Source: Mobula hypostoma
Taxonomy: Eukaryota
DNA length: 64,000 bases
Assembly: GCF_963921235.1 (NCBI RefSeq)
Contig: NC_086108.1
Span: 8,680,001-8,744,000, forward strand
Direction: 5' to 3'
Positions 1 through 64,000 of this stretch are shown in pieces. Numbering within the stretch: position 1 is the first letter of the stretch; the number at the start of each line of letters is the position of its first letter. A program made the position numbers and the translations under genes. The notes beneath the pieces were generated by a model. It was given only the letters and a program-made list of their open reading frames with translations. It ran no database searches and was not told the origin of the DNA.

Positions 1-236
1 CATAAAGTGACGCCGGGCAAAGGAGTGTCTGTACATAAGGTGACTGACAGGAACTGATAAAGTAGTGGTGGTTGGGGGTGTGGAGGGATGGGTTAGTGGG
101 TGGAGGTGTTGATCAGCCTTACTGCTTGAGGAATGTAACTGTTCTTCAGTCTGGTCGTCCTAGAAAGCTATCCCGGAAATCCCCACCACCCAGGACACGC
201 TCTCTTCTCACTGCTGCCATCGGGCAGGGGGTACAG

Positions 237-1274
237 GAGCCTCAGGTCCCACATCACCAGGTTCAGGAACAGTTATTACCCCACAACCATCAGGCTCCTG
301 AACCAGTGTGGATAACTTCACTCACCACAATGAGCCTCAGGTCCCACACCACCAGGTTCAGGAACAGTTATTACCCCACAACCATCAGGCTCCTGAACCA
401 GTGTGGATAACTTCACTCAGCACAATGAGCCTCAGGTCCCACACCACCAGGTTCAGGAACAGTTATTACCCCACAACCATCAGGCTCCTGAACCAGTGTG
501 GATAACTTCATTCACCACAATGAGCCTCAGGTCCCACACCACCAGGTTCAGGAACAGTTATTACCCCACAACCATCAGGCTCCTGAACCAGTGTGGATAA
601 CTTCACTCAGCACAATGAGCCTCAGGTCCCACACCACCAGGTTCAGGAACAGTTATTACCCCACAACCATCAGGCTCCTGAACCAGTGTGGATAACTTCA
701 CTCACCACAATGAGCCTCAGGTCCCACACCACCAGGTTCAGGAACAGTTATTACCCCACAACCATCAGGCTCCTGAACCAGTGTGGATAACTTCATTCAC
801 CACAATGAGCCTCAGGCCCCACACCACCAGGTTCAGGAACAGTTATCACCCCACAACCATCAGGCTCCTGAACCAGTGTGGATAACTTCACTCACCACAA
901 TGAGCCTCAGGTCCCACACCACCAGGTTCAGGAACAGTTATCACCCCACAACCATCAGACTCCTGAACCAGTGTGGATAACTTCACTCACCACAATGAGC
1001 CTCAGGTCCCACACCACCAGGTTCAGGAACAGTTATTACCCCACAACCATCAGGCTCCTGAACCAGTGGGGATAACTTCACTCACCACAATGAGCCTCAG
1101 GTCCCACACCACCAGGTTCAGGAACAGTTATTACCCCACAACCATCAGGCTCCTGAACCAGTGTGGATAACTTCACTCACCACAATGAGCCTCAGGTCCC
1201 ACACCACCAGGTTCAGGAACAGTTATTACCCCACAACCATCAGGCTCCTGAACCAGTGTGGATAACTTCACTCA
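237..1274 (+). repeat. Tandem array of about 11 x 95-bp units derived from the ORF end and 3' UTR start of a Rex1/Babar-type LINE
   Basis: GAGCCTCAGG recurs every 95 nt from 237 to 1187. The unit encodes SLRSHTTRFRNSYYPTTIRLLN, the same C-terminus as other Rex-type copies here. LINE flanks continue at about 175-236 and 1275-1440. Confidence 0.95.
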
Positions 1275-1871
1275 ACTTCATTTGGCCTGTCACTGAAATG
1301 TTCCCACAACCAATGGACTCATATTCAAGGACTCTTCATCTCATGTTCTCAATATTTATTGCTTATTTATTATTATTATTATTTCTTTCTTTTTGTATTT
1401 GCACAGTGTGTTGTCCAAATTGGTATGCTCTTTCATTAGAACACAGAACATAGACCAGTACAGCACCGGAACAGGCTCTGCAGCTCACAATGTTGTGCCA
1501 AACTGGTTAAAAGGTAAATCAAAAACTCCAAAAGCTAATCTCCTCTACCTACACCGTGTCCATATCCCTCTATCCTCCTCACATCCATGTGCCTATCCAA
1601 ACATCTCTTAAAAGCCTCCAATGTATCTGCCGCTACCACCATATCAGACATCCACCACTCTGAGTGAAAAAACTTACCCTGCACATCCCCTTTGAACCTG
1701 CCCCCTTCTCACCTGGATGGTAGGCATCTGGAGAGCTATGGTCCCGGTACAGGTCAATGGGAGTGGCCAGTTTAAATGGTTCAACACAACTAGATGGGCT
1801 GAAGGGTCTGCCTCTGTACTTTTCTATCATTCTAAGACTCCAACAATGAACAAATGAAAAATTACACACAC

Positions 1872-2772: not shown

Positions 2773-4365
2773 GTTCTGCTGCAAATGCCAACTAGAAAAT
2801 GAATCTCAGGGTGACATATACATAAATACTTTGATAATAAATTTACTGTGAACTTTGAATTGTATTAAGAGTCTTTAAAAAAAATCAGCCAATAATAGAG
2901 GCCAGCAATATAACACAAAAATACTGCTCAAACTCAGTGAAAATCCTGACACCGCTTGGACACAGATTTGGGGTGAGGGAAAGGGATTCTGGGGGGACTG
3001 GGGGGGTTCTGTGGCACCCCGAGAAGCGTAAGGGGCCCGATGACCTGTTTCAGTATCGTCTGACCCACGACTTAACTTTGGAAACAGCTCTCTCACATCC
3101 CCTGGTGGCTGTGGCAGGAACTGCACCGTAACACAGAGTACAGTACAGGAACAGGCCATGTGCCTCTTAAAAGCTTCTAATGTATTTTCCTCTACCACCA
3201 TACCAGGAGTCCACCACTCTCTGAGTAAAAAAAACGTACTCCTCACATCCCCCTTAAACCTACACCCCTCACCTTCAATCCATGCTCTCTGGTATTAGAC
3301 AATTCTACTCTGGGAAACAGATACTCCCTGTCTACTCATAATCTCTCAAAATCTTATGAACCTCGGTCAGATCTCCCCTCCGCCTCTGGCCCTCCAGAGA
3401 AAACAGCCCAGGTTTATGCAGCCTGTCATGATAGCACATGCCCTCTAAACCAGGCAAACCTGGGTAAAACTCATCTGCACCCTCTCCAAAGCCTCAACAT
3501 CCTTCCTAAAGGAGCAACTAGATCTGTAAGCAATATTCCAGACGTGGCCTAACCAGAGTTTTATAAAGTTGCAACATAACCTCCTGACTTTTGAACTGGT
3601 GTCTCAACTAATAAAAGCAAGCATTGCATAAGCCTTTTCAACCACCTTGTTGGCCTGTGTAGCCACTTTCTGTGATGAGGATGGTTTGGACCCAAACGCT
3701 GGAGCATCCAAGGCAAGGATCGAGACCCAGTCTCAAACTGGATCAAGAGTCTGAGCACAAAACAAACACTGGACAAGATCACGAGAAGGATTATGATTGA
3801 GCCTCAGTTCAGGTGCTCCTTAAATGCTCAATCCCTGGCGCTCAAAGCACGATTGCCAATTAACGGACCGTCCTGACTCTTTAAAGGAGCTGTTCCAGCT
3901 ATCCGTGCTCCGGGGAGTTCGTGTCTGAACCCTGGAAGCTGGCGCGGATGGGTGCGTGTTGTAACAATTTAAGTAATCGATGAACTTGGATCAAAAGATC
4001 TTTGCTCAACAACACTTTTAAATCTATAATAGAATAATTACCCTAACAGAGTCAATGAAAGACTGCACCAACTTGGGCGTTCAACCAGAATGCAAATTAC
4101 ATCAAACTGTACAAATACAAAAAGAAAAATAATAATAAGAAATAAGCAATGAATATCGAGAACATGAGATGAAGAGTCCCTGAAAGGGAGCCCTTTGGTT
4201 GTGGGAACATTTCAATGATGGGGCAAGTGAAGATGGGTTAACCTCTCCTGCCCCTTTGGAGAAATTTCACAAAGATTTCTCCTTTGATTAGTTCTGTATA
4301 GTTGCTCTGGGTTTCTATAGCAACATTGTCTAAGAAAATTTAACAATGAAGTCATAATCACAATT

Positions 4366-10777: not shown

Positions 10778-11490
10778 AGTGGAATGGGTCAAAAGCTTTA
10801 AGTTCCTCGGGGTCAATATCACAAATGACCTGACTTGGTTCAACCAAGCAGAGTCCACTGCCAAGAAGGCCCACCAGCGCCTTTACTTCCTGAGAAAGCT
10901 AAAGAAATTTGACCTGTCCCCTAAAACCCTCACTAATTTTTATAAATGCACCGTAGAAAGCATTCTTCTAGGGTGCATCACAACCTAGTATGGAAGTTGT
11001 CCTGTCCAAGACCGAAAGAAGCTGCAGAAGATCGTGAACACAGCGCAGCACATCACACAAACCAATCTTCCGTCCTTGGACTCACTTTACACCGCACGCT
11101 GTCGGAGCAGTGCTGCCAGGATAATCAAGGACACGACCCACCCAGCCAACACACTTTTCGTCCCTCTTTTCTCCGGGAGAAAGCTCAGGAGCTTGAAGAC
11201 TCGTACAGCCAGATTTGGGAACAGCTTCTTTCCAACTGTGATAAGACTGCTGAACGGATCCTGACCCGGATCTGGGCCATACCCTCCAAATATCCGGACC
11301 TGCCTCTCGGTTTTTTTTGCACTACCTTACTTTCCATTTTTCTATTTTCTATTTATGATTTATAATTTAAATTTTTAATATTTACTATTGATTTGTAATC
11401 CAGGGAACGGGAAGCGCAGAATCAAATATCGCTATGGTGATTATACGTTCTCGTATCAATTGTTTTGCAACAATAAAGTATAAAGTATAA
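10778..11490 (+). mobile_element. Rex1/Babar-type LINE 3' part
   Basis: VKSFKFLGVNITNDLTW...KKAHQRLYFLRKL...NSFFPTVIRLLN, with (TAAAGTA)n tail; the same 3' UTR recurs at about 45915-46132. Confidence 0.85.
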
Positions 11491-12122: not shown

Positions 12123-13655
12123 AAGATTCAAGATTCAAAAAACTTCATTATCACTCTATCCGTACATCAGCTCTGCAGGGCAGAATGAGACAGCGTTTCC
12201 CAGGAGCAGTGCAATCATAACATAACAAACGCAACACTAAATAATAAACATAACAATAAATAGTAAAACACAACAGCCACATGTCAGTTAAAATCAAGTT
12301 ATAAGTGTCCAGTGCAAGTTAAAAGTGTCCAAAGCAGAGTCAGGTGGAGCAGCTATTTAGCAGTCTGACTGCCTGTGGGAGGAAGCTGTTTAGTAGCCTT
12401 GTGGTTTTAGTTTTGATGCTCCTGTAACGTTTGCCTGATGGCAGAAGAACAAACAGTTCATGGAGAGGGTGTGAGGGGTCTTTAATGATGTACCGTGTCT
12501 TCTGGAGGCATTGACTCTGAAAGGGGTCTTGAACAGAAGGTAGGGAGACCCCAATAACCTTCTCTGCTCCCCTAACCACCCTCTGCAAGGCTTTTTTGTC
12601 GACAGCACTGCAGCTGGAGTACCAGGTTGTGATGCAAAAGGTCAGCACACTCTCAACCACGCCTCTGTAGAATGTAGTTAAGGTGTTAGTGGGGAGTGAT
12701 GCTTGTTTAAGCTTCCTCAGAAAGTGCAATCTCTGCTGGGCCCGTTTCACAATCCCAGTGGTGTTCCTGGACCAGGTGAGATTGTCCGAGATCTGCACCC
12801 CAAGGAACTTGATGCTTTCCACTCTCTCCACTGTGGAGCCACTGATGCTGAGGGGTGTGTGCTCAGGCTGAGACCGTCTGAAATCGACGATCATCTCCTT
12901 GGTTTTGGTGACATTAAGCATCAAGTTGTTATCACTGCACCAACTCTCTAGGTGTTTGACCTCCTCATAGTTTCATCATTTTTGCTGATGAGCCCCACCA
13001 CTGTGGTATCATCAGCAAATTTAATGATCAGGTTCTCCTTGAATCTGGCTGCACAGTCATGTGTTAGCAGTGTAAACAGCAATGGGCTAAGCACACAGCC
13101 TTGTGGGGATCCAGTGCACAGTGTGATGGAATCAGAGATGTTCCTGCCAACACAGACTGACTGTGGTCTCTCTGTCAAGAAATCCAGAATCCAGCGACAC
13201 ATGGCAGTGCTAAGGCCAAGCAGCGACAGTTTCTCCACTAGTCTCTGCGGGATGATGGTATTGAACGCTGAACTGAAATCAATGTACAGGATTCTGGCAT
13301 GTGTCCTTGTTGTCCAAGTGAGAGAGAACTGTGTGCAGTGTGGAGGATATTGTGACCTCTGTAGAGCGATTTGGACGATAAGCAAACTGTAGAGGATTCA
13401 GCGATGAGGGGAGGCTGGCTGTGATATGAGGCTTGACAAGCCGTTCAAAACATTTCATCACTATGGGGGTCAGGGCAACGGGACGGTAATCATTCAGACA
13501 GGCTACAACTGATTTCTTTGCTACAGGGATGATTGTGGTGGTTCTGAAGCATCTGGGGACAATGGCTTGACGAAGGGAGATGTTGAAAATGTCTGTCAGG
13601 ACATCTGCTAATACATCAGCACATTCCTTGAGCACACGTCCAGGGATGTTTGCCC
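12123..13655 (-). mobile_element. Rex1/Babar-type LINE, RT domain to 3' tail, with frameshifts
   Basis: [67 protein letters not shown]; (TTGAATC)n tail. Confidence 0.92.
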
Positions 13656-13659
13656 CCTT

Positions 13660-15028
13660 TTTGCGTATAGGTGTCCAATCCATCAAACTGTTTGTAAGAC
13701 ATGCATTCAAAAGCTGCCACTTTGGCTATTTCTGTGGCCCACTCCTGAAATGATGGTCCCCCCAAGTTCCTCCAACTTCTGAGTATAATTTGTTTTCCTA
13801 CCATTACACTTGCCTGGGTCCAATTTTAAGAGTGTTTATCCCCCAAGTAACCCAAGTGTGTCTCCCAAGACAAAAAGTCTGGGGCAGAAAGGGAGTAGAA
13901 TACCCGAAACTTCACCGATATACTTACGTATCATAATCCAAAATTCTTGAATTCTGGGACAGGACCAGAGTGCATGTACTAAGTCCCCTTCATCCACCTC
14001 ACAGAGCCAGCATTCAGGGGCGTTTTTCAACCCTAATCTATCTAACTTTGCTGGAGTCCAATAGAAACGGTGTAGGATCTTAAACTGAATAAGGCACACC
14101 CTCAGGTCTCTTGACATTGTTTTGACATGTTTGCAAATTTTGTCCCACTCTTTTGTCTCAAAAGTCACACTCAGGTCTTTTTCCCATGCTCTTTTAAGAC
14201 CCGACAGAATTTTGTCCCCGGAGATTTGTGTTAAAGCTGAATAATAAGTTGAAGCTTTGTGATTTTTACCATATGCAGCCAGTGAGGGGGAGGGAACGTC
14301 GACTCAGACCTTGGGAGACATGCGTCAGGCATTTTCATACCTTACAAGGCGCAGATTGGAAGTCTGTGTGGGTATGCAGCCAGTACAGTAGACAATATCG
14401 TAACAACTTGTGGGGGTTGCTGTGTAGAACCAGAAGTTGTATGTAGCAAATGAAGCAGTTGAAGATATCTCCAAAATTGTGACTCAGAAATATTTGATTA
14501 TATATTTTTTAAAATATATAAATAAATCAAATTAAATATTTGATAAAATAACTAAGGCTTTTATTTGGAATGGTAATGCCCAAGCTTAAACTTTAACAAA
14601 ATACAATTGCCAGTTGGGGGGGGGGGGCGGCGGTTGAGGTTTGCCAAAGTTAATAAACTATTATTGTGCCTTTACTCTTAAACATTTAGCACGTTGGTCT
14701 CTCCCTCCAGAGAGAGCGCCCCCTTGGTATCATATTGAGTGTTCTGCTCTTCCTCCCATCCCTCCAGTAAAATCTTTGTCTATCAAGTTACCTCCTGAGG
14801 CAGGGTCTCACCCAGTTATATCGCATATGCATTTGTTCTGGAATAAACTAGCCAGATTATTTAAATTTAATCCATATTTGAATGAAGCCTCGAGTATCTG
14901 GATGAATCCAAAGTTGTGTATTGATAAGCCCCCTTTCTTCTGGAGTGCATGGCAAGGGAAAGGCATAATTAAATTGGGAGACCTTTATAATGGTGATAGT
15001 TTAAAATCTTTTAATCAATTAATCCAAA
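13660..15028. mobile_element. L1/Tx1-clade LINE ORF2 fragment with a 5' inversion (minus 13660-14500, plus 14520-15028)
   Basis: Minus segment: FWRYLQL, AWEKDL, QFKILHR, zinc knuckle CWLC...HALWSC. Plus segment: LPKLINYY, IWMNPKL, WQGKGIIKLGDL, LKSFNQL. Confidence 0.8.
14284..14372. mobile_element. 89-bp insertion into the L1 fragment
   Basis: 12-bp TSD TATGCAGCCAGT (14272-14283, 14373-14384); removing it restores the L1 frame (TVLAAYGKNHKASTYY). Confidence 0.75.
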
Positions 15029-25200: not shown

Positions 25201-25363
25201 TCACCAGATTGATTCCTGGGATGGCAGGACTTTCATATGATGAAAGACTGGATGAACTAGGCTCAAACAACAGGAATTCTGCAGATGCTGGAAATTCAAG
25301 CAACACACATCAAAGTTGCTGGTGAACGCAGCAGGCCAGGCAGCATCTGTAGGAAGAGGTGCG

Positions 25364-25397
25364 GTCGACGTTTCAGGCCCAGACCCTTCGTCAGGAC
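25364..25397 (-). ncRNA. Minimal type I hammerhead ribozyme in Penelope pLTR (core intact)
   Basis: GTC-CTGACGA-AGG GTCTGGG CCT-GAAA-CG-TC-GAC: CUGANGA and GAAA boxes, palindromic ACGU stem III, GUC cleavage triplet. Confidence 0.8.
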
Positions 25398-27932
25398 TAA
25401 CTGAAGGAAGAGTGAGTAAGGGATTTGAAAGTTGGAGGGGGAGGGGGAGATCCAAAATGATAGGAGAAGACAGGAGGGGGAGGGATAGAGCCAAGAGCTG
25501 GACAGGTGATAGGCAAAAGGGGATACGAGAGGATCATGGGACAGGAGGTCCGGGAAGAAAGACAAGTGGGGGGGGAACCCAGAGGATGGGCAAGAGGTAC
25601 ATTCAGAGGGACAGAGGGAGAAAAAAGAGAGTGAGAGAAAGAATGTGTGCATAAAATAAGTAACAGATGGGGTACGAGGGGGAGGTGGGGCCTTAGCGGA
25701 AGTTAGAGAAGTCGATGTTCATGCCATCAGGTTGGAGGCTACCCAGACGGAATATAAGGTGTTGTTCCTCCAACCTGAGTGTGGCTTCATCTCCACAGTA
25801 GAGGAGGCCGTGGATAGACATGTCAAAATGGGAATGGGATGTGGAATTAAAATGTGTGGCCACTGGGAGATCCTGCTTTCTCTGGCGGACAGAGCGTAGA
25901 TGTTCAGCAAAGCAGTCTCCCAGTCTGTGTCGGGTCTCACCAATATATAAAAGGCCACATCGGGAGCACCGGACGCAGTATATCACCCCAGTCGACTCAC
26001 AGGTGAAGTGTTGCCTCACCTGGAAGGACTGTTTGGGGCCCTGAATGGTGGTAAAGGAGGAAGTGTAAGGGCATGTGTAGCACTTGTTCCGCTTACACGG
26101 ATAAGTGCCAGGAGGGAGATCAGTGGGGAGGGATGGGAGGGACGAATGGACAAGGGAGTTGCGTAGGGAGCGATCCCTGCGGAATGCAGAGAGAGGGGGG
26201 GAGGGAAAGATGTGCCTAGTGGTGGGATCCCGTTGGAGGTGGCAGAAGTTACGGAGAATAATATGTTGGACCCGGAGGCTGGTGGGGTGGTAGGTGAGGA
26301 CCAGGAGAACCCTATTCCTAGTGGGGTGGCGGGAGGATGGAGTGAGAGCAGATGCACGTGAAATGGGGGAGATGCGTTTAAGAGCAGAGTTGATAGTGGA
26401 GGAAGGGAAGCCCCTTTCTTTCAAAAAGGAAGACATCTCCTCCAACTTCCTCCAAACTAAAGGTGTAGCTATGGGCACCCATATGGGTCCTAGCTATGCC
26501 CGCCTTTTTGTTGGGTTTGTGGAACAATCTATGTTCCGTGCCTATTCTGGTATCTGTCCCCCACTTTTCCTTCGCTACATCGACGACTGCATTGGCGCTG
26601 CTCCTGCACGCATGCTGAGCTCGTTGACTTTATTAACTTTGCCTCCAACTTTCACCCTGCCCTCAAGTTTACCTGGTCCATTTCCGACACCTCCCTCCCC
26701 TTTCTAGATCTTTCTGTCTCTGTCTCTGGAGACTGCTTATCCACTGATGTCTACTATAAGCCTACTGACTCTCACAGCTATCTGGACTATTCCTCTTCTC
26801 ACCCTGTCTCTTGCAAAAACGCCATCCCCTTCTCGCAATTCCTCCGTCTCCGCCGCATCTGCTCTCAGGATGAGGCTTTTCATTCTAGGACGAGGGAGAT
26901 GTCTTCCTTTTTTAAAGAAAGGGGCTTCCCTTCCTCCATTATCAACTCTGCTCTTAAACGCATCTCCCCCATTTCACGTACATCTGCTCTCACTCCATCC
27001 TCCCGCCACCCCACTAGGAATAGGGTTCCCCTGGTCCTCACCTACCACCCCACCAGCCTCCGGGTCCAACATATTATTCTCTGTAACTTCCACCACCTCC
27101 AACAGGATCCCACCACTAAGCACATCTTTCCCTCCCCCCCTCTCTGCTTTCTGCAGGGATCGCTCCCTACGCGACTCCCTTGTCCATTCGTCCCCCCCAT
27201 CCCTCCCCACTGATCTCCCTCCTGGCACTTATCCTTGTAAGCAGAACAAGTGCTACACATGCCCTTACACTTCCTCCCTCACCACCATTCAGGGCCCCAA
27301 ACAGTCCTTCCAGGTGAGGCAACACTTCATCTGCGAGTCGACTGGGGTGATATACTGCGTCCGGTGCTCCCAATGTGGCCTTTTATATATTGGCGAGACC
27401 CGACGCAGACTGGGAGACCACTTTGCTGAACATCTACGCTCTGTCCGCCAGAGAAGCAGGATCTCCCAGTGGCCACACATTTTAATTCCACATCCCATTC
27501 CCATTCTGACATGTCTATCCACGGCCTCCTCTACTGTAAAGATGAAGCCACACTCAGGTTGGAGGAACAACACCTTATATTCCGTCTGGGTAGCCTCCAA
27601 CCTGATGGCATGAACATTGACTTCTCTAACTTCCGCTAAGGCCCCACCTCCCCCTCATACCCCATCTGTTACTCATTTTTATGCACACATTCTTTCTCTC
27701 ACTCTCCTTTTTCTCCCTCTGTCCCTCTGAATATACCTCTTGCCCATCCTCTGGGTCACCCCCCCCCGTCTTTCTTCCCGGACCTCCTGTCCCATGATCC
27801 TCTCGTATCCCCTTTTGCCTATCACCTGTCCAGCTCTTGGCTCTATCCCTCTCCCTCCTGTCTTCTCCTATCATTTTGGATCTCCCCCTCCCCCTCCAAC
27901 TTTCAAATCCCTTACTCACTCTTCCTTCAGTT

Positions 27933-27968
27933 AGTCCTGACGAAGGGTCTCGGCCTGAAACGACGACT
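27933..27968 (+). ncRNA. Hammerhead ribozyme copy with mutated U16.1 (GAAACG-AC), probably inactive
   Basis: AGTC-CTGACGA-AGG GTCTCGG CCT-GAAA-CG-AC-GACT. Confidence 0.65.
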
Positions 27969-30220
27969 GCACCTCTTCCTACAGATGCTGCCTGGCCTGC
28001 TGCGTTCACCAGCAACTTTGATGAACTAGGCTCATACTCGTTGGAATTTAGAAGATTGAGGGGGGATCTGATTGAAACGTATAAAATCCTAAAGGGATTG
28101 GACAGGCTAGATGCAGGAAGATTTTTCCCGATGTTGGGGAAGTCCAGAACGAGGGGTCACAGTTTGAGGATAAAGGGGAAGCCTTTTAGGACCGAGATTA
28201 GGAAAAACTTCTTCACACAGAGAGTGGTGAATCTGTGGAATTCTCAGCCACAGGAAACTGTTGAGGCCAGTTCATTGGCTATATTTAAGAGGGAGTTAGA
28301 TATGGCCCTTGTGGCTAAAGGGATCAGGGGATATGGAGGGAAGGCTGGTACAGGGTTCTGAGTTGGATGATCAGCCATGATCATACTGAATGGCGGTGCA
28401 GGCTCGAAGGGCCGAATGGCCTACTCCTGCACCTATTTTCTATGTTTCTATGTTTCTATATTTCTTACAAGCCAGATTGAATTTTTTGAGGATGTGACTA
28501 AACACATTGATGAAGGTGGAGCAGTAGATGTAGTGTATATGGATTTCAGCAAGGCATTTGATGAGGTATTCCATGCAAGGCTTATTGAGAAAGTAAGGAG
28601 GCATGGGATCCAAGGGGACTTAGTTTTGTGGATCCAGAATTGGCTTGCCCACTGAAGGCAAAGAGTGGTTGTAAACGGGTCATATTCTGCATGGAGGTCA
28701 GTGTCACCCTGGGAAAAAGTCTCCGTCTGTCCACTCAATCAATGGCTCTTATTGTCTTGAATACCTCTATCAAGGAAGGGGTGATTTCTGTAAGCCGTCA
28801 CTAGGGAGTGTTGTCTGCACAGTTAACGGTCTAACTCTCTGAGAGCAGAGACAATTACTCAGTCCTGATGAAGGGTCTCAGCTCTCCATAGGTGCTGCCT
28901 GAACTGCTGAGCTCCTCCAGCATTTTGTGTGTTTGTGTTGCTCTGGATTTCCAGTAGCTGCAGAATCTCTTGTGTTTATATTTCAACATGGTAGTTCTGC
29001 GTAAGTTAGGAACTTGTGCGAAGATGTTAGTGTTAACCTGGATTGTCAGTGGATTTATGTACAGACAATTTTCCTGTCCTGGAGCAATGTACATCATAGA
29101 ACATAGTAGAGTACAGCACAGGAACAGGCCATTTGGCCCACAGTGTTGTGCTGTACCAGATAAAAAGCGAATCAAAAACACCCAAACACTAATCCCTCCA
29201 TGTGCCAATCTAAACATCCCTTAAAAGCCTCTAATGTATTTACCTCGACCACCACACCAGACAGCGCATTCCAGGCATCCAGCACTCTCTGAGTGAAAAA
29301 CTTACCCCTCACATCCCCCTTTGAACTTCCCCTCTCCAGCATCACTCTGCTCCAAGGGTCACAACAGAAGGGCCATCGAGACGAGATATGTGGAGTCGCT
29401 GATCCAGACTGAGTCCGGATCACTCTCCCATCCCAGCGGCCGGTGGAAATTGCAACAACTGGTGTTGCTCAAACAGCTGAATCTGTGTCTGATTGGGCAA
29501 TTTCTCCCCAGAAAGGCAGATACAGTGAAGATATTTAAGAGACTGGTAGACAGGCTGATAGATGAGAGAGAAATAGACAACTATGTGGGAGGGAAGGGTT
29601 AGATTGATCTTAGAGCAGGTTAAAGGGTCAGCACGACATCACGGGCTGAAGGGCCTGTACTGTGCCTGCCTTTACCACCACACCAGGCAGCATATTCCAT
29701 GCACCCACCACTCTCTGTGTAAAGAACGTACCTCTGACACCCCTCTCCCATACTTTCTCCAATCACATTAAAGTTACGCCCCACTGGTATTAGCCAGTTC
29801 CACCCTGGGAAAAAGTCTCATGCTGCCCACTCGATCTCTGCCTCTTATTATCTTGTACACCTCCATCAAGTTACCTCTTATCCTCCTTCACTCCAAAGAG
29901 AAACGCCCCAGCTAGCTCAACCTACCCTCATAAGACATGCTCTCAAATTCAGGCAGCATCCTGGAAAATCTCCTCTACACCCTCTCTAAAGCCTCCACAT
30001 CCCTCCTATAATGAGACAACCATAGAGGTGTGTAGCAGCCCAGTCACAGAATCATAGAAACCACAGCACAGAAACAGGCCCCTTGGCCAAACCATTTAAA
30101 TTGCCCAGAGAGCTGCGGTGGCTCTCTAAACCCCTCCTGAGCACAGAATCATCTGCGACCATTGTACAGTTTTCCGAAAATAATTTAATCTTTTATTTAT
30201 TCAAAAATAAACGAATGTTC

Positions 30221-33200
30221 TCCGTGTCCCGACCACAGACCCAACCCCCCACTGTCCCACACTGCCCCGTGTCCCGACCACCGACCCAACCCCTCACTGC
30301 CCCTCACTGCCCGGTGTCCAGACCACCGACCCAACCACCCCACTGCCCCACACTGCCCTGCGTCCCGACCACCAACCCAACCCCTCACTGTCCAACACTG
30401 CCCCGTCTCCCGACCACCGACCCAACCCCTCACTGCCCCACACTGCCCCGTGTCCCGACCACCGACCCAACCCCTCACTGTCCAACACTGCCCCGTGTCC
30501 TGACCACTGACCCAACCCCTCACTGTCCAACACTGCCCCGTGTCCCTACCACCGAACCAACCCCTCACTGCCCCGCGTCCCGACCACTGACCCAACCCCT
30601 CACTGTCCCACACTGCCCCGTGTCCCGACCACCGACCCAACCCCTCACTGCCCCACACTGCCCCGTGTCCCGAACACCGACCCAACCCCTCACTGCCCCT
30701 CACTGCCCTGCGTCCCGACCACTGACCCAACCCCACACTGCCCCGTCTCCCGACCACCGACCCAACCCCTCACTGCCCCACACTGCCCCGTGTCCCGACC
30801 ACCGACCCAACCCCTCACTGCCCCTCACTGCCCTGCGTCCCGACCACTGACCCAACCCCTCACTGCCCCACACTGCCCCGTGTCCCGACCACCGACCCAA
30901 CCCCTCACTGCCCCACACTGCCCCGTGTCCCGACCACCGACCCAACCCCTCACTGCCCCTCACTGCCCTGCGTCCTGACCACCGACCCAACCCCTCACTG
31001 CCCCACACTGCCCCGTGTCCCGAACACCGACCCAACCCCTCACTGCCCCTCACTGCCCTGCGTCCCGACCACTGACCCAACCCCACACTGCCCCGTCTCC
31101 CGACCACCGACCCAACCCCTCACTGCCCCACACTGCCCCGTGTCCCGACCACCGACCCAACCCCTCACTGCCCCACACTGCCCCGTGTCCCGACCACTGA
31201 CCCAACCCCTCACTGCCCCGTGTCCGACCACCGACCCAACCCCTCACTGCCCCGTGTCCTGACCACTGACCCAACCCCCTACTGCCCCACACTGCCCCGT
31301 GTCCCGACCACTGACTCAACCCCTCACTGCCCCGCGTCCCGAACACTGACCCAACCCCACACTGCCCCACACTGCCCCGTGTCCCGACCACTGACCCAAC
31401 CCCTCACTGCCCCGTGTCCCGACCACTGACCCAACCCCTCACTGCCCCGTGTCCTGACCACTGACCCAACCCCCTACTGCCCCACACTGCCCCGTGTCCC
31501 GACCACTGACCCAACCCCTCACTGCCCCGCGTCCCGAACACTGACCCAACCCCTCACTGCCCCGCGTCCCGAACACTGACCCAACCCCTCACTGCCCTGT
31601 GTCCCGAGCACCGACCCAACCCCTCAATGCCCCACACTGCCCCGTGTCCCGACCACCGACCCAACCCCCCACTGCCCCTCACTGTCCCGTGTCCCGACCA
31701 CTGACCCAACCCCTCACTGCCCCGTGTCCCGACCACTGACCCAACCCCTCACTGCCCCTCACTGCCCCGCGTCCCGACCACCGACCCAACCCCTCACTGC
31801 CCCTCACTGCCCCGTGTCCCGACTACTGACCCAACCCCTCACTGCCCCGTGTCCTGACCACCGACCCAACCCCTCACTGCCCCTCACTGCCCCGTGTCCC
31901 GACTACTGACCCAACCCCTCACTGCCCCGTGTCCTGACCACTGACCCAACTCCTCACTGCCCCTCACTGCCCCGTGTCCCGACCACTGACCCAACCCCTC
32001 ACTGCCCCACACTGCCCCGTGTCCCGACCACTGACCCAACCCCTCACTGCCCCACACTGCCCCGTGTCCCGACCACTGACCCAACCCCTCACTACCCCTC
32101 ACTGCCCCGTGTCCCGACCACTGACCCAACCCCTCACTGCCCCGTGTCCTGACCACTGACCCAACCCCTCACTGCCCCACACTGCCCCGTGTCCCGACCA
32201 CTGACCCAACCCCTCACTGCCCCGTGTCCTGACCACTGACCCAACCCCTCACTGCCCCTCACTGCACCGTGTCCTGAGCACTGACCGAACTCCTCACTGC
32301 CCCGTGTCCCGATCACTGACCCAACCCCCTCACTGCCCCTCACTGCCCCGTGTCAAAACCTCCGACCCAACCCCTCACTGCCCCGTGTCCTGATCACTGA
32401 CCCAACCTCTCACTGCCCCGTGTCCCAACCTCCGACCCAACCCCTCACTGCCCCACACTGCCCCACGACCCGACCACTGACCCAACCCCTCACTGCCCCG
32501 TGTCCCGATCACTGACCCAACCCCCTCACTGCCCCTCACTGCCCCGTGTCAAAACCTCCGACCCAACCCCTCACTGCCCCACACTGCCCCACGACCCGAC
32601 CACCGACCCAACCCCTCACTGCCCCACACTGCCCCGTGTCCCGACCACTGACCCAACCCCTCACTGCCCCACACTGCCCCGTGTCCCGACCACTGACCCA
32701 ACCCCTCACTACCCCTCACTGCCCCGTGTCCCGATCACTGACCCAACCCCCTCACTGCCCCTCACTGCCCCGTGTCAAAACCTCCGACCCAACCCCTCAC
32801 TGCCCCACACTGCCCCACGACCCGACCACTGACCCAACCCCTCACTGCCCCACACTGCCCCGTGTCCCGACCACTGACCCAACCCCTCACTGCCCCACAC
32901 TGCCCCGTGTCCCGACCACTGACCCAACCCCTCACTACCCCTCACTGCCCCGTGTCCCGACCACTGACCCAACCCCTCACTGCCCCGTGTCCAGACCACT
33001 GACCCAACCCCTCACTGCCCCTCACTGCCCCGTGTCCCGACCACTGACCCAACCCCTCACTGCCCCGTGTCCTGACCACTGACCCAACCCCTCACTGCCC
33101 CTCACTGCACCGTGTCCTGAGCACTGACCCAACCCCTCACTGCCCCGTGTCCCGATCACTGACCCAACCCCCTCACTGCCCCTCACTGCCCCGTGTCAAA

Positions 33201-35135
33201 ACCTCCGACCCAACCCCTCACTGCCCCGTGTCCTGATCACTGACCCAACCTCTCACTGCCCCGTGTCCCAACCTCCGACCCAACCCCTCACTGCCCCACA
33301 CTGCCCCACGACCCGACCACTGACCCAACCCCTCACTGCCCCGTGTCCCGATCACTGACCCAACCCCCTCACTGCCCCTCACTGCCCCGTGTCAAAACCT
33401 CCGACCCAACCCCTCACTGCCCCACACTGCCCCACGACCCGACCACCGACCCAACCCCTCACTGCCCCACACTGCCCCGTGTCCCGACCACCAACCCAAC
33501 CCCTCACTGCCCCGTGTCCTGATCACTGACCCAACCTCTCACTGCCCCGTGTCCCAACCTCCGACCCAACCCCTCACTGCCCCACACTGCCCCACGACCC
33601 GACCACCGACCCAACCCCTCACTGCCCCGTATCCCGACCACTGGCCCAACCCCTCACTGCCCCACACTGCCCCGTGTCCCGACCACCAACCCAAATCCTC
33701 ACTGCCCCTCGCTGCCCCGTGTCCCGACCACTGACCCAACCCCTCACTGCCCCGTGTCCCGACCACCAACCCAACCCCTCACTGCCCCGTGTCCCGACCA
33801 CTGACCCAACCCCTCACTGCCCCGTGTCCTGATCACTGACCCAACCTCTCACTGCCCCTCACTGCCCCGTGTCCCGACCACAGACCCAACCCCTCACTGC
33901 CCCTCACTGCCCCGTGTCCCGACCACCGACCCAACCCCCCACTGCCCCGTGTCCCGACCACTGACCCAACCCCTCACTTCCCCGTGTCCCGACCACTGAC
34001 GCAGCCCCTCACTGCCCCACACTGCCCCGTGTCCCGACCACCGACCCAAATCCCCACTGCCCCTCACTGCCCCGTGTCCCGACCTCCGACCCAACCCCTC
34101 ACTGCCCCTCACTGCCCCGTGTCCTGACCACTTACCCAACCCCTCACTGCCCCTCACTGCCCCGTGTCCCGACCACTTACCCAACCCCTCACTGCCCCTC
34201 ACTGCCCCGTGTCCCGACCACTGACCCAACCCCTCACTGCCCCTCACTGCCCCGTGTCCTGACCACTGACCCAACCCCTCACTGCCCCGTGTCCCGACCA
34301 CTTACCCAACCCCTCACTGCCCCTCACTGCCCCGTGTCCCGACCACTGACCCAACCCCTCACTGCCCCTCACTTCCCCGTGTCCCGACCACTGACCCAAC
34401 CCCTCCCTGCCCCGTATCCCGACCACTGTCCCAACCCCTCACTGCCCCACACTGCCCCGTGTTCCGACCACCGACCCAACCCCTCACTGCCCCTCACTGC
34501 CCCGTGTCCCGACCACTGACCCAACCCCTCACTGCCCCTCACTGCCCCGTGTCCCAACCTCCAACCCAACCCCTCACTGCCCCACACTGCCCCACGTCCC
34601 GACCACCGACCCAACCCCTCACTGCCCCGTATCCCGACCACTGCCCCAACCCCACACTGCCCCGTGTCCCGACCACCGACCCAACCCCTCACTGCCCCAC
34701 GTCCCGACCACCGACCCAACCCCTCACTGCCCCGTGTCCTGACCACTGACCCAACCCCTCACTGCCCCACATCCCGACCACCGACCCAACCCCTCACTGC
34801 CCCGTATCCCGACCACTGCCCCACACTGCCCCGTCTCCCAACCACCGACCCAACCCCTCACTGCCCCGTGTCCCGACCACTGACCCAACCCCTCACTGCC
34901 CCAACCCCTCACTGCCCCTCACTGCCCCGTGTCCTGAGCACTGACCCAACCCCTCACTGCCCCACACTGCCCCGTGTCCCGACCACCGACCCAACCCCCC
35001 ACTGCCCCTCACTGCCCCGTGTCCCGACCACCGACCCAACCCCCCACTGCCCCTCACTGCCCCGTGTCCCGACCACTGACCCAACCCCTCACTGCCCCGC
35101 GTCCCGACCACTGACCCAACCCCTCACTGCCCCAC
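30221..35135. repeat. C-rich minisatellite, 35-bp unit with an optional 10-bp module (45 bp), about 4.9 kb
   Basis: Unit CCCGTGTCCCGACCACTGACCCAACCCCTCACTGC with or without CCC(A/T)CACTGC. Confidence 0.97.
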
Positions 35136-35254
35136 ACACCCAACCACTCACACACTCCACTCCCTGTCTCACCTCCAACTCTCCACATTTTCCCCTACCC
35201 CCCACACTCCCCCCAGCCCATAAACACAGCCGATCACATTAGTGTGTCTGGGAC

Positions 35255-37131: not shown

Positions 37132-37411
37132 TCACGATCCCAGGTCAACCAAGCTGGAGGTGAGGGGCCCCAGGATGGAGCCCTGCAGATGCCGGGGGTG
37201 CTGGAGCACGGGGCTGCCCAGCGGCAGGACCGAGTCTATGGGCTGGGCGTGGAGGCCGCCGGGGTACAAGATTCCTGGGGTGCCGGCCCGAGGGTCGGGA
37301 CTCAACTCTGGTGACATCTCCTCTTCGTCCGAGCTGCTCAGGGTGAGACCAGCACCTTGCACCTGGCGGTGTGGCTGCCGGCCCTGAGGGTTGGAGTTCT
37401 CGCCGTTCTCC
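37132..37411 (-). CDS. six1-like: SIX1-like coding exon 3 (C-terminal region)
   Basis: Acceptor CCTCCTCCTTTCTCCACAG|G completes a phase-2 Arg codon. Encodes ENGENSN...[16 protein letters not shown]...[18 protein letters not shown], then TGA at 37134-37132. Confidence 0.92.
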
Positions 37412-40400
37412 CTGTGGAGAAAGGAGGAGGCGTCAGTGAGGTGGCCCTGTCGACTTGCTATGGGTCCCGTAGACATGTCGGGGGACTCTGTGGGTTCAAT
37501 GGGTATCCATCGCCTCACATTCACAAACATCCCTGTCTCCACTTTCCCCCTCACTCCTGAATCACTCCTCAACTCTCCCCTTAGTCCTGGATCAATCTCA
37601 CTCCTGAATCGCTCACCAACTCTTCCCTTACTCCCAGATCAATCTCACTCCTGAATCGTTCCGCAACTCTCCCCTTCTTTCCCCTTACTCCCGGATCGAT
37701 CTCACTCCTGAGTCGTTCCCCAACTCTCCCCTTACTCCCAAATCAATCTCACTCCTGAATTGCTCCCCAACTCTCCCCTTCTTTCCCCTTACACCCGGAT
37801 TGATCTCACTCCTGAATCGCTCCCCAACTCCCCCCTTACTCCCAAATCAATCTCACTCCTGAATCGCTCCCCAACTCTCCCCTTACTCCTGAATCAACCT
37901 AACTCCTGGATTGCTCCCCTCCCTCATCTCACTCTGGGATCTTTCTCCACCTCTTCTCACTCCCTGTCCCCTCCCAACTGCCAGGGCACACCCTTTCCCC
38001 TCTTCAGTTCCAGATTAATCCCCATTCTCCTCACTCCTAGATCTCGCTCTTCAGCTGCTCTGTCCTCAGTCTGGATCTCTCTTTAACTCCTATTCCAACT
38101 ACTGGATCAACCTCCACCCCCCCACATGCTCTTCTCAAATCCAGGATCACTCCACATCTTTAACCCAACTCCTTGCCCTGCCCCTTCTTCCCGCCCCACT
38201 CCCGGATCATTCTCCCTTCTGACTCTTAGTTCACTCCCCATCACCTTCCTCACTCCCAGGTCAGTTCCCGTCCCTTTCCCCAACTGCCAGACCCTTCTCT
38301 TTGTCCTACCCACTCCCGGATCACCGCCCTGTCACCACCCCCCCCCCCCCGTTCCGTCTCACCCTACTCCCTACTCCCCACCTGTCCTTGGTCTCTGCCG
38401 CTCGGTCCCTCTGCCTTCGGTTCTTGAACCAGTTGCTGACCTGGGTGGTGGTCAGTCCGGTGGCCTCCGCCAGCTCCCTCTTCTCCCGAGGGGAAGGGTA
38501 GGGGTTGTGCAGATACCAGTCCCGCAGGACACCCCGAGACTTCTCCTGGACGGTGGCAAAGAGAATTAGTTTCTCCTCACCTCAGAGATTCAACACAATA
38601 TCACCTGAATGTTAATGAGGGCTGCGAACTGTAGAAGAATACAGGCCCTTCGGCCCACCAGTTCATGCTAACCACCATGCACTCTTCCACCTTTTCTATT
38701 CGAAATGTGGTTTATTCATGGGAAATGACTCTAACTTCTGACACACTGAGCTGCGTTTTCATTCATTTCTAACGAAACTAGAATTTAGGGGGTCATAGGT
38801 GACGGGTGCAAGGTGAAATATTGGGGGGCCACTTATTTGGTAACATATTGACACAATGGGAATTCGTAAATGCAAGAGATTCTGCAGATGCTGAAAACAA
38901 AGTACAGCACAGAAACAGGCCCTTCAGCCCATCTAGTCCTTGCCAAACCATTTAATCTACCTAGTCCAATCAGCCCACATACCCTCCAAACCCCCACCAT
39001 CCAAACTTCGCTCAAACGTTGAAATCAAGCTCGCGTGCACTATCTGTGCTGGCAGCTCGTTCCACACTCTCACCACCCTCTGAGTGAAGGATCTTCCACT
39101 CATGTTCCCCTTCACCCTTAACCCATGACTTCTACAAATCCAGTAGTGTAGTGGTTAGCACAGCACCTTACGGTACCAGCAACCCGGGTGCAATTCCCGT
39201 TGCCAACCTGTAAGGAGTTCGTACATTCTCCCCATGTCAGCGAGGGTTTCCTCCGGGTGCTCTGGTTTCCTCCCACAGTCCAAAGACGTACCAGTTGGTA
39301 GGTTAATTGGTCATTGTAAGTTGTCCTCTGATTAGTTTAGTGTTAAATAGGTGGGTTGCTGGAGCAGAAGGGCATAAACCACACTGTATCTCAATAAATA
39401 CAGTGTAATGGGTAAATGCAAGAGATTCTGCAGCTGCTGGAAATAGAGCCATAGAAAATTACTCATGAAAACAGGCCTTTCGGCCCATCTAGTCTGCTCT
39501 GGATTACTTAAAATGCCTACTCCCATCAACCTGCACCGGGATCACGGCACTCCATCCCACTACCAGCCACATACCTGTCCAAACTTCTCTTAAACATTGA
39601 AATCGAGTTCTTATGTAGCACTTGCACTGGCAGCTCATTCCATATCCTCCCCAGCCTCTGTGTTTCCCTTCATGTTCCCCTTAAACTTTTCACATTTCAC
39701 CCTTAACCCTTGAGTAGTGCAGTGGAACCCATGCAGTTGTGGAACATAGAAACTTCTTACAGATTGATTCCTGGGATGGCAGGACTTTCATATGAAGAAA
39801 GACTGGATGAACTGGGCTTGTACTCGTTGGAATTTAGAAGATTGAGGGGGATCTGATTGAAACGTATAAAATCCTAAAGGGATTGGACAGGCTAGATGCA
39901 GGAAGATTGTTCCCGATGTTGGGGAAGTCCAGAACAAGGGGTCACAGTTTGAGGATAAAGGGGAAGCCTTTTAGGACCGAGATTAGGAAAAGCTTCTTCA
40001 CACAGAGAGTGGTGAATCTGTGGAATTCTCTGCCACAGGAAACAGTTGAGGCCAGTTCATTGGCTATATTTAAGAGGGAGTTAGATATGGCTCTTGTGGC
40101 TACGGGGGTCAGGGGGTATGGAGGGAAGGCTGGGGCGGGGTTCTGAGTTGGATGATCAGCCATGATCATAATAAATGGCGGTGCAGGCTCGAAGGGCCGA
40201 ATGGCCTACTCCTGCACCTATTTTCTATGTTTCTATTACAGACAGAGGCGGGAATTGAACACAGAACACTGTCTTAGGGAGTTTGTATGTTCTCCTGTGT
40301 GTTCCAGGTTTGTCCCACAGTCCTATCTCAACAAAACAGACAGACAGAAAGGTAGATAGATAGACAGAGAAAGGGAGATAAATAAATAAATATACAGACA

Positions 40401-45183: not shown

Positions 45184-45504
45184 GGTGGCCGTGGCCGGGG
45201 CTCGCCCGGCTCTGAAACCCTCACCTGGACTCTGTGTCTCGGTTGCAATGCCCAAACTCATCTGCTATTGGCTGCTGGTCCGCTCAATGCAGGGAGGAAG
45301 CGGGATCAAATTTTCTTCAATAATTCACCAGCGAGTCTGTGTCAGTAACAGAAACCCGATCCACAGCGCTGCGTCCTCGGGCACATCCAGCCGTTCGACG
45401 GAGCCGTCCTGAGAAGGCAATAACTACAACCTGCATTTACCTAGCAGCCCCTACGGACACCACCCGCTTAGAGTTTTACAGAAGGGTGGCCTAAGGTTAC
45501 TCGG

Positions 45505-61594: not shown

Positions 61595-62240
61595 ACAGTT
61601 TGTGAAGATTCAGCATGGCATCGAAAACTTTCACGAACTTTTATAGATGTGCAGTGGAGAGTGTATTGACTGGCTGCATCATAACTTGGTATGGAAACAC
61701 CAATGCTCTGGAATGGAAAAGCCTACAAAAATTAGTGGATAAGGCCCTCTCCACCACTGAGCACATCTACATGAAATGTTGTCACAGGAAAGCAGCATCC
61801 ATCATTGGGACCCCCACCACCCAGGTCATGCTCTCTCCTCACTACTGCTATCAGAAAGAACGTACAAGTAACTCAGGACTCACACCACCAGGTTCAGGAA
61901 CAGTTATTACCCCTCAACCATCAGGCTCTTGAACCAGAGGGGATAACCTCACTCAACTTCACTTGCCCCATCACTGAAATGTTCCCACAACCAATGGACT
62001 CACTTTCAAGGCCTCTTCATCTCATGTTCTTGGTATTTATTGCTTATTTATTTATTATTATTGTTCCTTCTTTTTGCATTTGCACTGTTTGTTGTCTTCT
62101 GCACTCTAGTTGAACACCCTAGTTGTGTAGATCCTGTTATAGCTAGTATTCTATAGATTTATTGAGTATGTCTACAAGGAAATGAATCTCAGGGTTGTAA
62201 ATGGTGACAGACACGTACGTTGATAACAAAAGTTACTTGA
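61595..62240 (+). mobile_element. Rex1/Babar-type LINE 3' part carrying a single, unamplified copy of the 95-bp unit
   Basis: NFYRCAVESVLTGCIITWYG; 3' UTR matches 1275-1420. Confidence 0.85.
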
Positions 62241-62957
62241 CTTTGAATGAAATGAGTTGTTTGTGCTAACAACCAACACACCCTAGGGATGTGCTGGGGG
62301 GCAGCCTGCAAGGGTTGCCACTCATTTCGGTGCCAACATATTTGGGGACCTTGCTTATCACTGGTGACTATGGGACTGAGATAAATAGTCATGAGAAACA
62401 GGGAGAAGATAGAAATAGGACATTTCAGTTCATGCGTAGGGGGTAAAGGTTAGACAACTGATGGAACCTTCAGGCTGGTTTTTGCTGGAGATGGTTTACT
62501 GGGGACAATGAAGACCAAGAGAAAGCATCTAAAAACCATAGCAACGTAGAGCACTGAGGATCAGTCAGAAGTCAAGGCACTGAAGGCCGCAACTGAGGGT
62601 CTGTGAGGTCATGAGGAATGTTGATATCTGGCAGTCTGTGAATTCACTGCCAGCTGGCAGCCTCTACTTTATTAGAAGTTTGTGTAGATTTGGCATGTCA
62701 TTTAAACCTTTGACAAACTTCTATAAGTACACAGTGCACTCACAATACACGACCTGATACAGAAACGCCTATAGCCGGGAATGCAAAAATCTCCAGGAAA
62801 TGGTGGATAAAGCCCAGTCCATCACAGGCAAAGCCCTCCCCACCATTGAGCATATCTACAAGGAGCACTGCAACGGGAAAGCAGCATCCATCATCAAGGA
62901 CTCCCACCATCCGTACCATGCTCTCTCCTCACTACTACCACTGGAAAGGAGGTACAG

Positions 62958-63331
62958 GAGCCTTAGGTCCCACAATACCAGCTTCAGGAACAGTTATTAC
63001 CCTACAACCATCAGGCTCCTGAACCAGAGGGGATAACTTCACTCACCACAATGAGCCTCAGGTCCCACACCACCAGGTTCAGGAACAGTTATCACCCCAC
63101 AACCATCAGGCTCCTGAACCAGTGTGGATAACTTCACTCACCACAATGAGCCTCAGGTCCCACACCACCAGGTTCAGGAACAGTTATTACCCCACAACCA
63201 TCAGGCTCCTGAACCAGTGTGGATAACTTCACTCCCCACAATGAGCCTCAGGTCCCACACCACCAGGTTCAGGAACAGTTATTACCCCTCAACCATCAGG
63301 CTCCTGAATCAGATAACTTCACTCACCACAA
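62958..63331 (+). repeat. Second array (4 units) of the same 95-bp repeat inside a Rex1/Babar LINE 3' end (about 62670-63530)
   Basis: Unit starts at 62958, 63053, 63148 and 63243, with the same CCACAAT-GAGCC junction as the 237-1274 array. Confidence 0.93.
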
Positions 63332-64000
63332 CTCTGAACTGATTCCATAACCTACAGGCTCACTTTCAGGAACTCTACAAGTCATGCTCTCAATATTATT
63401 TATTTATTTAAAATTTGCATAAATTCTCTTCTTTTGCACATTTATTGTTTGTTGGTTGTGTTATCTATAGTTTTTCATAAATTCTAATATATTTCTTTAT
63501 TTTCCTGGAAGGTAGTATATGACTTTATATTCTTTTTTTTTATAATACTTTAATCAAAGTATTCTGACTTTGATGAAGATGCGAGAAGCTTCAAAAGTAA
63601 CTACAGTACTGTAGAAAAGTCTGAGGATTGTTCAGAATCAGATGACCTTGCCTGGTGTCTCAGGGCTGGCTGTGTCTGCATCTCCCCTACCCCTCTGCCC
63701 CAGCACTCCTTCTCTGCCACCTGTCCCACACCCCCCTCACCATTCCTAACATCCTTTGCTCCCACCAGATTTACAAACTCACTGCACTCCACGTTGACAA
63801 ATTACGGTCCTCTGCAAAAGTCTCAGGCACCCTGGCTGTACACATGTACCTAAGACTTTTGTGCAATACCTGTAGACCGACTGAAAACACAACATTCGGT
63901 AGGAAAAACAGAGCTAGCTCAAGGTCAGGTCTATTGTTGTCACAGGAATACACGCACAGGGTATAAATCCCACGAATATTAGCATTTAACAGCCACAACA

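What the first reader, a model, noticed from the sequence alone, without database searches (positions are those of the whole stretch)
237..1274. A 95-bp LINE-derived minisatellite that appears to spread between different LINE copies
Seen: the same unit with the same novel junction (CTTCACTCA-CCACAAT-GAGCC) forms 11 copies here and 4 copies at 62958-63331, while a sister LINE at about 61870-61955 has only one unit. The junction bases CCACAA match the natural 3' UTR of the 63-kb host (CTCACCACAACTCTGAAC). They do not match this host, which continues CTCAACTTCATTTGG like the 61.9-kb copy. The inner units at 63 kb resemble this array more than their own outer units and share the TTATCACCCC variant (841, 939, about 63090). 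Inference: the tandem arose in one subfamily and was copied into another by ectopic gene conversion or by integration of a circular or rolling-circle intermediate, i.e. a satellite that homes into homologous LINE ends.
Basis: partly seen in the sequence, partly recalled or inferred. Interest (0 to 1): 0.7.

Follow-up and report, generated by a model that had tools for sequence, protein, structure and literature searches.

The report
LINE-end minisatellite copied between old LINEs
Two near-identical arrays of a 95-base repeat made from the tail of a jumping gene sit 62 kb apart inside much more worn copies of that gene with different tail types, in what is likely a ray genome, so the array was likely copied from one old copy into another during DNA repair.

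Summary
Eleven 95-bp units (237-1274) and four (62958-63331) repeat the last codons and first 3' UTR bases of a Rex1/Babar-like LINE (label recalled) with one shared junction. The left array's units differ from their majority at 10 of 1038 bases, yet end on a tail of another subtype with 8 private changes in 135, cut by a further element. The right array's inner units are 1 change from the left array's majority; its outer units are worn. So sequence moved recently between two old LINE copies; this is not a plain retrotransposing subfamily. Not shown: an empty site, any third 95-bp locus (no genome held), long-read support, or the kind of donor. New here: a 70-bp sister array from the same LINE end occurs in Hypanus and Mobula records and in all four laid runs. 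Best reading: non-allelic, homology-guided break repair (0.45). Closest: SINE-derived satellites of squamates; Drosophila Rsp-like. The scan had no look-alike note; it noted a SINE-born satellite elsewhere in this genome. New variant of a known kind; interest 0.42.

The parts
181..236 (+). 5' flank of array A: 56 bases of LINE ORF end, 5'-truncated at 181; subtype not settled
   Evidence: translation HHPGHALFSLLPSG; tblastn E 1.5e-12 to the RT-tail ORF at 12343-12972; 8-15 differences in 56 from five other copies
237..1274 (+). Array A: 11 units of 95 bp (last one 88 bp), each the last 25 codons, stop and first UTR bases of the LINE, joined CCACAA-T-GAGCC
   Evidence: 10 changes in 1038 bases, 7 distinct, three of them recurring in two units
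1260..1274 (+). 15-base window (unit positions 74-88) in which the last unit passes from array sequence to the S-type host tail
   Evidence: last S-versus-array difference at position 73, first tail difference at 89
1275..1436 (+). Old S-type 3' UTR of host A, with a 22-base deletion, ending at 1436
   Evidence: 88% to 61956-62096; 8 private changes in 135 columns against two sister copies; deletion
1437..1702 (-). Another repeat whose own tail begins exactly where host A's UTR stops; read as a later insertion into host A
   Evidence: 78% to 43438-43719, 75% to 29095-29186; all three copies begin with the same tail; CR1-like label recalled
61597..62250 (+). Single-unit sister LINE (S type); its unit is 61868-61955
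   Evidence: 10 differences in 88 from the array majority; tblastn E 3e-17
62662..62957 (+). Worn 5' part of host B (ORF end with a PF09004-like stretch)
   Evidence: tblastn E 1.5e-21; PF09004 E 0.16, below cut-off; matching flank contigs in organisms A, B and C
62958..63331 (+). Array B: worn first unit (7 changes, the last at position 73), two fresh inner units (1 change each), last unit worn from position 47 (2 changes and a 5-base deletion)
63332..63575 (+). B-type 3' UTR and tail of host B, the type that supplies the junction bases CCACAA
   Evidence: 73% to host A's UTR; loose-end consensus after CCACAA in X6
640..684 (.). 9-base perfect inverted repeat within each unit (shown for unit 5), 27 bases apart
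   Evidence: DNA fold z -1.5 (+) and -2.2 (-)

Best explanation
A 95-bp tandem of a LINE's 3' end, carrying a junction of the B tail type, sits in two worn LINE copies of different tail types, and it was likely copied between them by non-allelic, homology-guided break repair (gene-conversion-like) with an array as the DNA template. Steps: (1) shown: the unit is the LINE's ORF end plus the first UTR bases of the B type, and both arrays share one junction; (2) inferred: the junction arose once, by a slip with at most 1-3 shared bases; (3) shown: host A's tail is S type, worn and cut by another element, while its units are fresh up to a 15-base stretch of identity; (4) inferred: a broken end in that S-type copy paired with an array there and copied through it, replacing the host's own unit; (5) shown: the inner units of B match A at 99% while B's outer units are worn; inferred: recent exchange between the two arrays or from a shared donor; (6) inferred: unequal exchange inside A then changed unit number (three variants recur in two units each).
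For: Junction of B type on an S-type tail. Units 10/1038 against tail 8/135 private changes, Fisher p 4e-4. Host A's UTR stops at the tail of another element whose sister copies are 75-78% alike, so host A was not written in one fresh piece. The first and last units of A carry none of the six letters (11, 13, 47, 62, 71, 73) by which S differs and that I take as subtype letters. B1 7/95 against B2+B3 2/190, p 0.007. Host B's flanks exist in organism B (5/510, 3/150, 6/313 differences) and organism C (15/258; 9 plus 9 gap letters/263), so the host predates those splits. Smoothing inside an array cannot keep two separate arrays 99% alike (reasoning). A 70-bp sister array runs into a third LINE subtype in one Mobula record.
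Against: Only two loci, 62 kb apart on one strand. No contig bridges either array or an empty site. The ortholog bound alone does not date the inner units (P 0.09-0.37). Low divergence inside A does not date its arrival. B1 is worn up to position 73 and B4 from position 47, which one insertion into a one-unit host cannot give. The subtype of A's 5' flank is unsettled, so a left-hand homologous junction is not shown. The 95-bp junction peptide is in 0 of 11 ray proteins. Nothing here tells a DNA donor from an RNA or circular one.
Confidence: 0.45

Rival explanations
1. Old chimera, refreshed later: the array joined the S-type tail long ago, at insertion, by a reverse-transcriptase template switch between two LINE RNAs; only the unit sequence was later smoothed by exchange with array B or others.
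For: A has one clear switch point (positions 74-88 of the last unit); its 5' flank also looks worn (3 of 30 letters from the family majority, by eye); B looks like an old tandem with refreshed middle; squamate SINE satellites are also more alike between loci than their SINEs (PMC10702118).
Against: A's end units keep no worn letters at the edges (0 changes in the last 88 bases, 1 in the first 95), unlike B's; about 2-3 would be expected in the last 40 bases at 6% (my estimate, P near 0.09).
Confidence: 0.2
2. Reverse-transcribed or circular donor: RNA of an array-bearing LINE is primed on the broken end of an old LINE copy, or a small DNA circle of units integrates by homology.
For: The polarity at A (old 3' part, fresh 5' part, truncated at 181) is the one reverse transcription would give; the one added base at the junction fits a template jump (recalled for R2 and L1 enzymes); Rsp-like is abundant on circles (PMC7403614 passages).
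Against: No ribozyme or other Rfam family (1 chance match); no GT donor after CCACAA for back-splicing (sequence); neither array has end units that add up to one host unit; units vary, unlike copies of one small circle; no RNA holder was laid.
Confidence: 0.15
3. One array split in two: a single crossover between an array-bearing copy and a one-unit copy swapped their flanks, so that 1275-63045 (with a SIX gene) entered as a circle and A and B are the halves of one array of about 14 units.
For: Both arrays pass between host and array sequence in the same window (A11 at 74-88, B1 after 73); B1 has the S-like letters at 71 and 73; joining A's start to B's end gives one host with a crossover between positions 19 and 46; the C41 variant is shared.
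Against: B's 5' part has B-type marks (positions 11, 46, 62; HIYKE as in XP_059827626.1, which ends NQHG), matching its own tail; the 11.6-kb copy shows that the letters at 71 and 73 occur in other subtypes; no target duplication supports either pairing; such events are rare (general knowledge).
Confidence: 0.12
4. Assembly or polishing artefact: reads from one array overwrote the units of the other, or the arrays are mis-joined.
Against: Five unique contigs of organism A match B's surroundings with 0 differences; variants recur in ordered pairs within A; polishing would not put a B-type junction on an S-type tail.
Confidence: 0.04
5. A simple LINE subfamily that carries the tandem in its 3' UTR and inserts in one piece.
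For: The first unit keeps the ORF end and stop in place, so such an element could be viable.
Against: The two loci have different tails (73% alike), worn flanks and, at A, no intact tail.
Confidence: 0.04

Closest known systems
SINE-derived satellites (sSat1-3) of squamates, PMC10702118 (parts 1-4 of 5 read; supplements not seen)
   Same: Tandem units of 70-290 nt cut from part of a retroposon, end units running on into the element, several unit lengths from one element, units more alike within and between loci (89%) than the SINE copies (64%).
   Different: Here the source is a LINE's ORF end and UTR, in rays. The parts I read invoke unequal recombination and concerted evolution and report no array whose junction and tail come from different subfamilies.
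Rsp-like satellite entering 1.688 clusters in Drosophila, PMC7403614 (12 passages read)
   Same: A young satellite appears at old repeat loci, joined at short shared sequence; interlocus conversion and circle reintegration are the proposed routes.
   Different: There the satellites are unrelated, empty orthologous sites were shown and circles were sequenced; here the landing site is the dispersed LINE that gave the unit, and neither empty sites nor circles are shown.
Satellites from 3' UTR tandems of Ogre LTR retrotransposons, PMC7004042 (9 passages read)
   Same: Tandem repeats in a retroelement's 3' UTR seed satellites.
   Different: Those short arrays are part of the element; here fresh arrays sit in worn hosts of unlike subtypes.
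[quoted passage not shown]
   Same: Sequence of one copy overwrites another copy of the family.
   Different: Here the transfer also changes length, from one unit to many.

Membership tests
Retroposon-derived satellite of the sSat kind | Tandem unit is a part of a retroposon, shorter than it, with end units continuing into the element | tested here: met
Retroposon-derived satellite of the sSat kind | Source is a SINE | tested here: not met
   source is a LINE ORF end
Retroposon-derived satellite of the sSat kind | At least four middle units | tested here: met
   A has 9; B has only 2
Retroposon-derived satellite of the sSat kind | Units more alike between loci than the host copies are | tested here: met
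   99% between arrays against 73-75% between host flanks
Retroposon-derived satellite of the sSat kind | Many loci per genome, often subtelomeric | not testable with these tools
   no genome held; only the 70-bp sister is seen on at least 7 contigs of 3 species
Rsp-like type spread into existing repeats | Host present before the array, shown by an empty orthologous site | tested here: inconclusive
   host B flanks present in organisms B and C, but no contig bridges the site
Rsp-like type spread into existing repeats | Junction with the host at a short shared sequence | tested here: met
   15-base identity window at 1260-1274
Rsp-like type spread into existing repeats | First and last units add up to one unit (circle integration) | tested here: not met
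   B1 worn to 73 and B4 from 47; A keeps no S-type letters
Rsp-like type spread into existing repeats | Repeat found on extrachromosomal circles | not testable with these tools
   no such library laid
Rex1/Babar LINE (host) | ORF end follows an RT domain and a PF09004 stretch | tested here: met
   hosts match the ORF at 12343-12972 (E 1e-12 to 1e-21), which has PF09004 (E 1e-17) next to RVT_1 (E 4e-14); that this layout marks Rex1/Babar is recalled
Rex1/Babar LINE (host) | RT groups with named Rex1/Babar elements in a tree | not tested
   no reference RT sequences were held
Ribozyme-bearing tandem retroelements (retrozymes; recalled) | Self-cleaving ribozyme in the unit | tested here: not met
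   Rfam scan of 1-1500 gave 1 match, E 0.44, far below gathering score
Plain LINE subfamily with a tandem 3' UTR | One flank type, flank as fresh as units, intact tail | tested here: not met

The most novel reading that the evidence does not exclude
The 3' end of this LINE family breeds a set of minisatellites (70 and 95 bp) that behave as homing parasites across ray genomes: array RNA is reverse-transcribed onto the broken ends of dead LINE copies of several subtypes, using 15-26 shared bases, so that a vast graveyard of old copies serves as landing sites.
Probability: 0.17. Interest if true: 0.72.

Novelty: new variant of a known kind. Interest (0 to 1): 0.42.

Why it matters
How a small tandem at one site becomes a family at many sites is an open question in satellite evolution. 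Here subtype letters mark donor and host separately, so the route can be read from sequence: with a ray assembly, each array can be scored for flank type, switch point and empty orthologous site, which separates DNA conversion, circle integration and RNA-templated writing. It also explains a set of spurious 'uncharacterized' and 'mucin-like' RefSeq proteins of rays as translated 70-bp arrays.

Tried and rejected
Whole genome: none held. Junction or unit patterns in viral contigs: 0 and 0. Protein search with the junction peptide at near length: nothing. HMMER over 1.84 billion representatives: 4 hits, three 70-bp arrays and one unrelated repeat protein. A '48-bp go-back' joint first looked like a third unit length; 48 plus the 22 unseen letters equals 70 and no protein shows a 16-residue period, so I dropped it. 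Higher summed depth over the unit in X11 and X4 is not used, as the tool states depth is no copy number. Target duplications: best exact matches 5-8 bases over 12 boundary pairs, none convincing. RNA fold of 225-345: z -0.54; circular folds z -2.1 (+) and -3.7 (-) come from the LINE's own inverted repeat, not the junction, so no viroid-like reading. Pfam found nothing on three short host peptides. Ten paper searches listed no report of these arrays in rays; the library lacks most subscription papers, and supplements of PMC10702118 and PMC7403614 were not read and may hold cross-subfamily cases. PMC12628747, PMC6274825 and the Mobula preprint 10.64898/2026.10.27.761883 were seen as passages only and added nothing specific.

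Full report
What is there. TRF finds period 95 at 237-1274 (10.9 copies) and 62958-63331 (4.0 copies). The unit has 17 matches in the window: the 11 + 4 array units, a single unit at 61868-61955 and a partial one near 11.6 kb. It encodes the last codons of a LINE ORF (SLRSHTTRFRNSYYPTTIRLLNQCG, stop) and the first UTR bases. The hosts match an ORF at 12343-12972 (E 1e-12 to 1e-21) that carries PF09004 beside an RT domain; I call this Rex1/Babar-like from memory and did not test it on a tree. The best protein matches are from Hypanus and Mobula, so the window is likely from a myliobatiform ray. No genome was held, so the junction could not be counted genome-wide.

Two tail types. After the shared stretch ending CTTCACTCA, host A and the 61.9-kb copy continue ACTTCA (S type; 88% alike), host B continues CCACAAC (B type; 73% to A's tail). 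The array junction is CCACAA-T-GAGCC. In run X6, 127 contigs leave the unit right after CCACAA with a natural B-type UTR, so the junction was made in a B-type copy. Array A therefore joins a B-type junction to an S-type tail, and the switch lies in the 15 bases 1260-1274.

Fresh units, worn hosts. A's units differ from their majority at 10 of 1038 bases; its tail has 8 private changes in 135 columns against two sister copies (p 4e-4), a 22-base deletion, and stops at 1436, where the tail of another element begins whose sister copies are 75-78% alike. In B the first unit has 7 changes, the inner two have 1 each (p 0.007; 0.018 if one subtype letter is left out), and the last has 2 changes and a 5-base deletion from position 47 on. 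Host B's flanks are found with 0 differences in organism A, about 1% in organism B and 3-6% in organism C, so that host is older than those splits. Against my reading: that bound alone does not date the inner units (P 0.09-0.37), the shared C41 variant has a 5-10% chance of recurring, and no contig bridges an array or an empty site (only the B region was laid, 4 of 24 listed runs). Smoothing within an array can erase age, but cannot hold two separate arrays at 99%; recent exchange between loci, or from a shared donor, is the firm conclusion.

A sister family. One search shows contigs that turn back from CCATCAGG inside the unit to the same motif upstream, a 70-bp period, in all four runs (loose ends of 17-94 contigs in X4, X9, X11; joint 61925 to 62946 with 7-22 contigs in all four). 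Ten RefSeq-predicted proteins (of 14 candidates) from H. sabinus, M. hypostoma and M. birostris are translations of such arrays, 70 residues per three units with shorter variants, on at least 7 contigs by their listed lengths. None of 11 ray proteins has the 95-bp junction peptide. One, XP_072106639.1, runs from the array into an end that fits a third subtype (13 of 21 residues to the 56.5-kb copy, 10 to S), at a 26-base stretch that the subtypes share (by eye); as a predicted, possibly spliced protein it is a lead only. So this LINE end breeds more than one minisatellite in rays. Repeated TCAGG motifs and a 9-base inverted repeat may make it prone to slips and breaks; that is inference.

Mechanism. 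I favour non-allelic break repair with an array as DNA template (0.45): a broken end in an old S-type copy pairs with an array in the shared stretch and copies through it. Rivals: an old template-switch chimera refreshed later (0.2); an RNA or circular donor (0.15), which fits the polarity at A but has no ribozyme and no matching end units; one array split by a single crossover that brought in 1275-63045 as a circle (0.12), which would explain why both arrays switch after position 73 and why B1 and B4 are both worn in 47-73, but needs a hybrid host and has no target duplication; artefact (0.04); plain subfamily (0.04).

What is known. Squamate SINE-derived satellites share the layout and the likeness between loci (PMC10702118, parts 1-4 of 5). 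Drosophila Rsp-like enters old 1.688 clusters at short shared sequence, by proposed conversion or circles (PMC7403614, passages). Ogre 3' UTR tandems seed plant satellites (PMC7004042, passages). Ten searches listed no report of these ray arrays (see Tried and rejected). Earlier notes of this scan hold no look-alike; one describes a satellite grown in a SINE elsewhere in this genome, unchecked by me.

Verdict. A real feature and a new variant of a known kind. The cross-subtype junction is a clean marker of transfer between old copies, but 'homing' rests on two neighbouring loci and one protein-level lead. Interest 0.42.

Noticed in passing
window 37135-45264, minus strand: A SIX1/2-like homeobox gene in three pieces (SIX1_SD E 4e-49 at 44740-45264; homeodomain at 38324-38581; a C-terminal piece near 37135-37400) lies between the two arrays; an intron appears to fall between the SIX domain and most of the homeodomain.
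   Followed up: partly
RefSeq proteins XP_059849387.1, XP_059813716.1, XP_062892962.1, XP_072105736.1, XP_072106639.1, XP_059813912.1: Predicted ray proteins that are three-frame translations of the 70-bp LINE-end array, likely annotation artefacts; two UBE2Z isoforms of Mobula end in the same array, perhaps one orthologous locus.
   Followed up: partly
window 1-164, minus strand: 3' end of another Rex1-like family, cut at the position matching the array's unit and lying head to head with host A, about 20 bases apart.
   Followed up: no
window 12343-13725, minus strand: Longer Rex1-like LINE piece with RT and PF09004; a further copy at 10779-11258 on the plus strand.
   Followed up: partly
window 30222-35137: About 4.9-kb C-rich minisatellite with 45- and 80-base periods.
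   Followed up: no
window 37550-37979: 104-base tandem (3 copies, 91%) between the SIX gene pieces.
   Followed up: no
window 25294-28023 and 48799-49756: Inverted pair of about 1.1 kb at 96% (25308-26440 and 26895-28023) with a third copy at 48799-49756.
   Followed up: no
window 2776-2860: A LINE tail that could be the far end of host A after nested insertions, but it resembles other tail types as well.
   Followed up: partly
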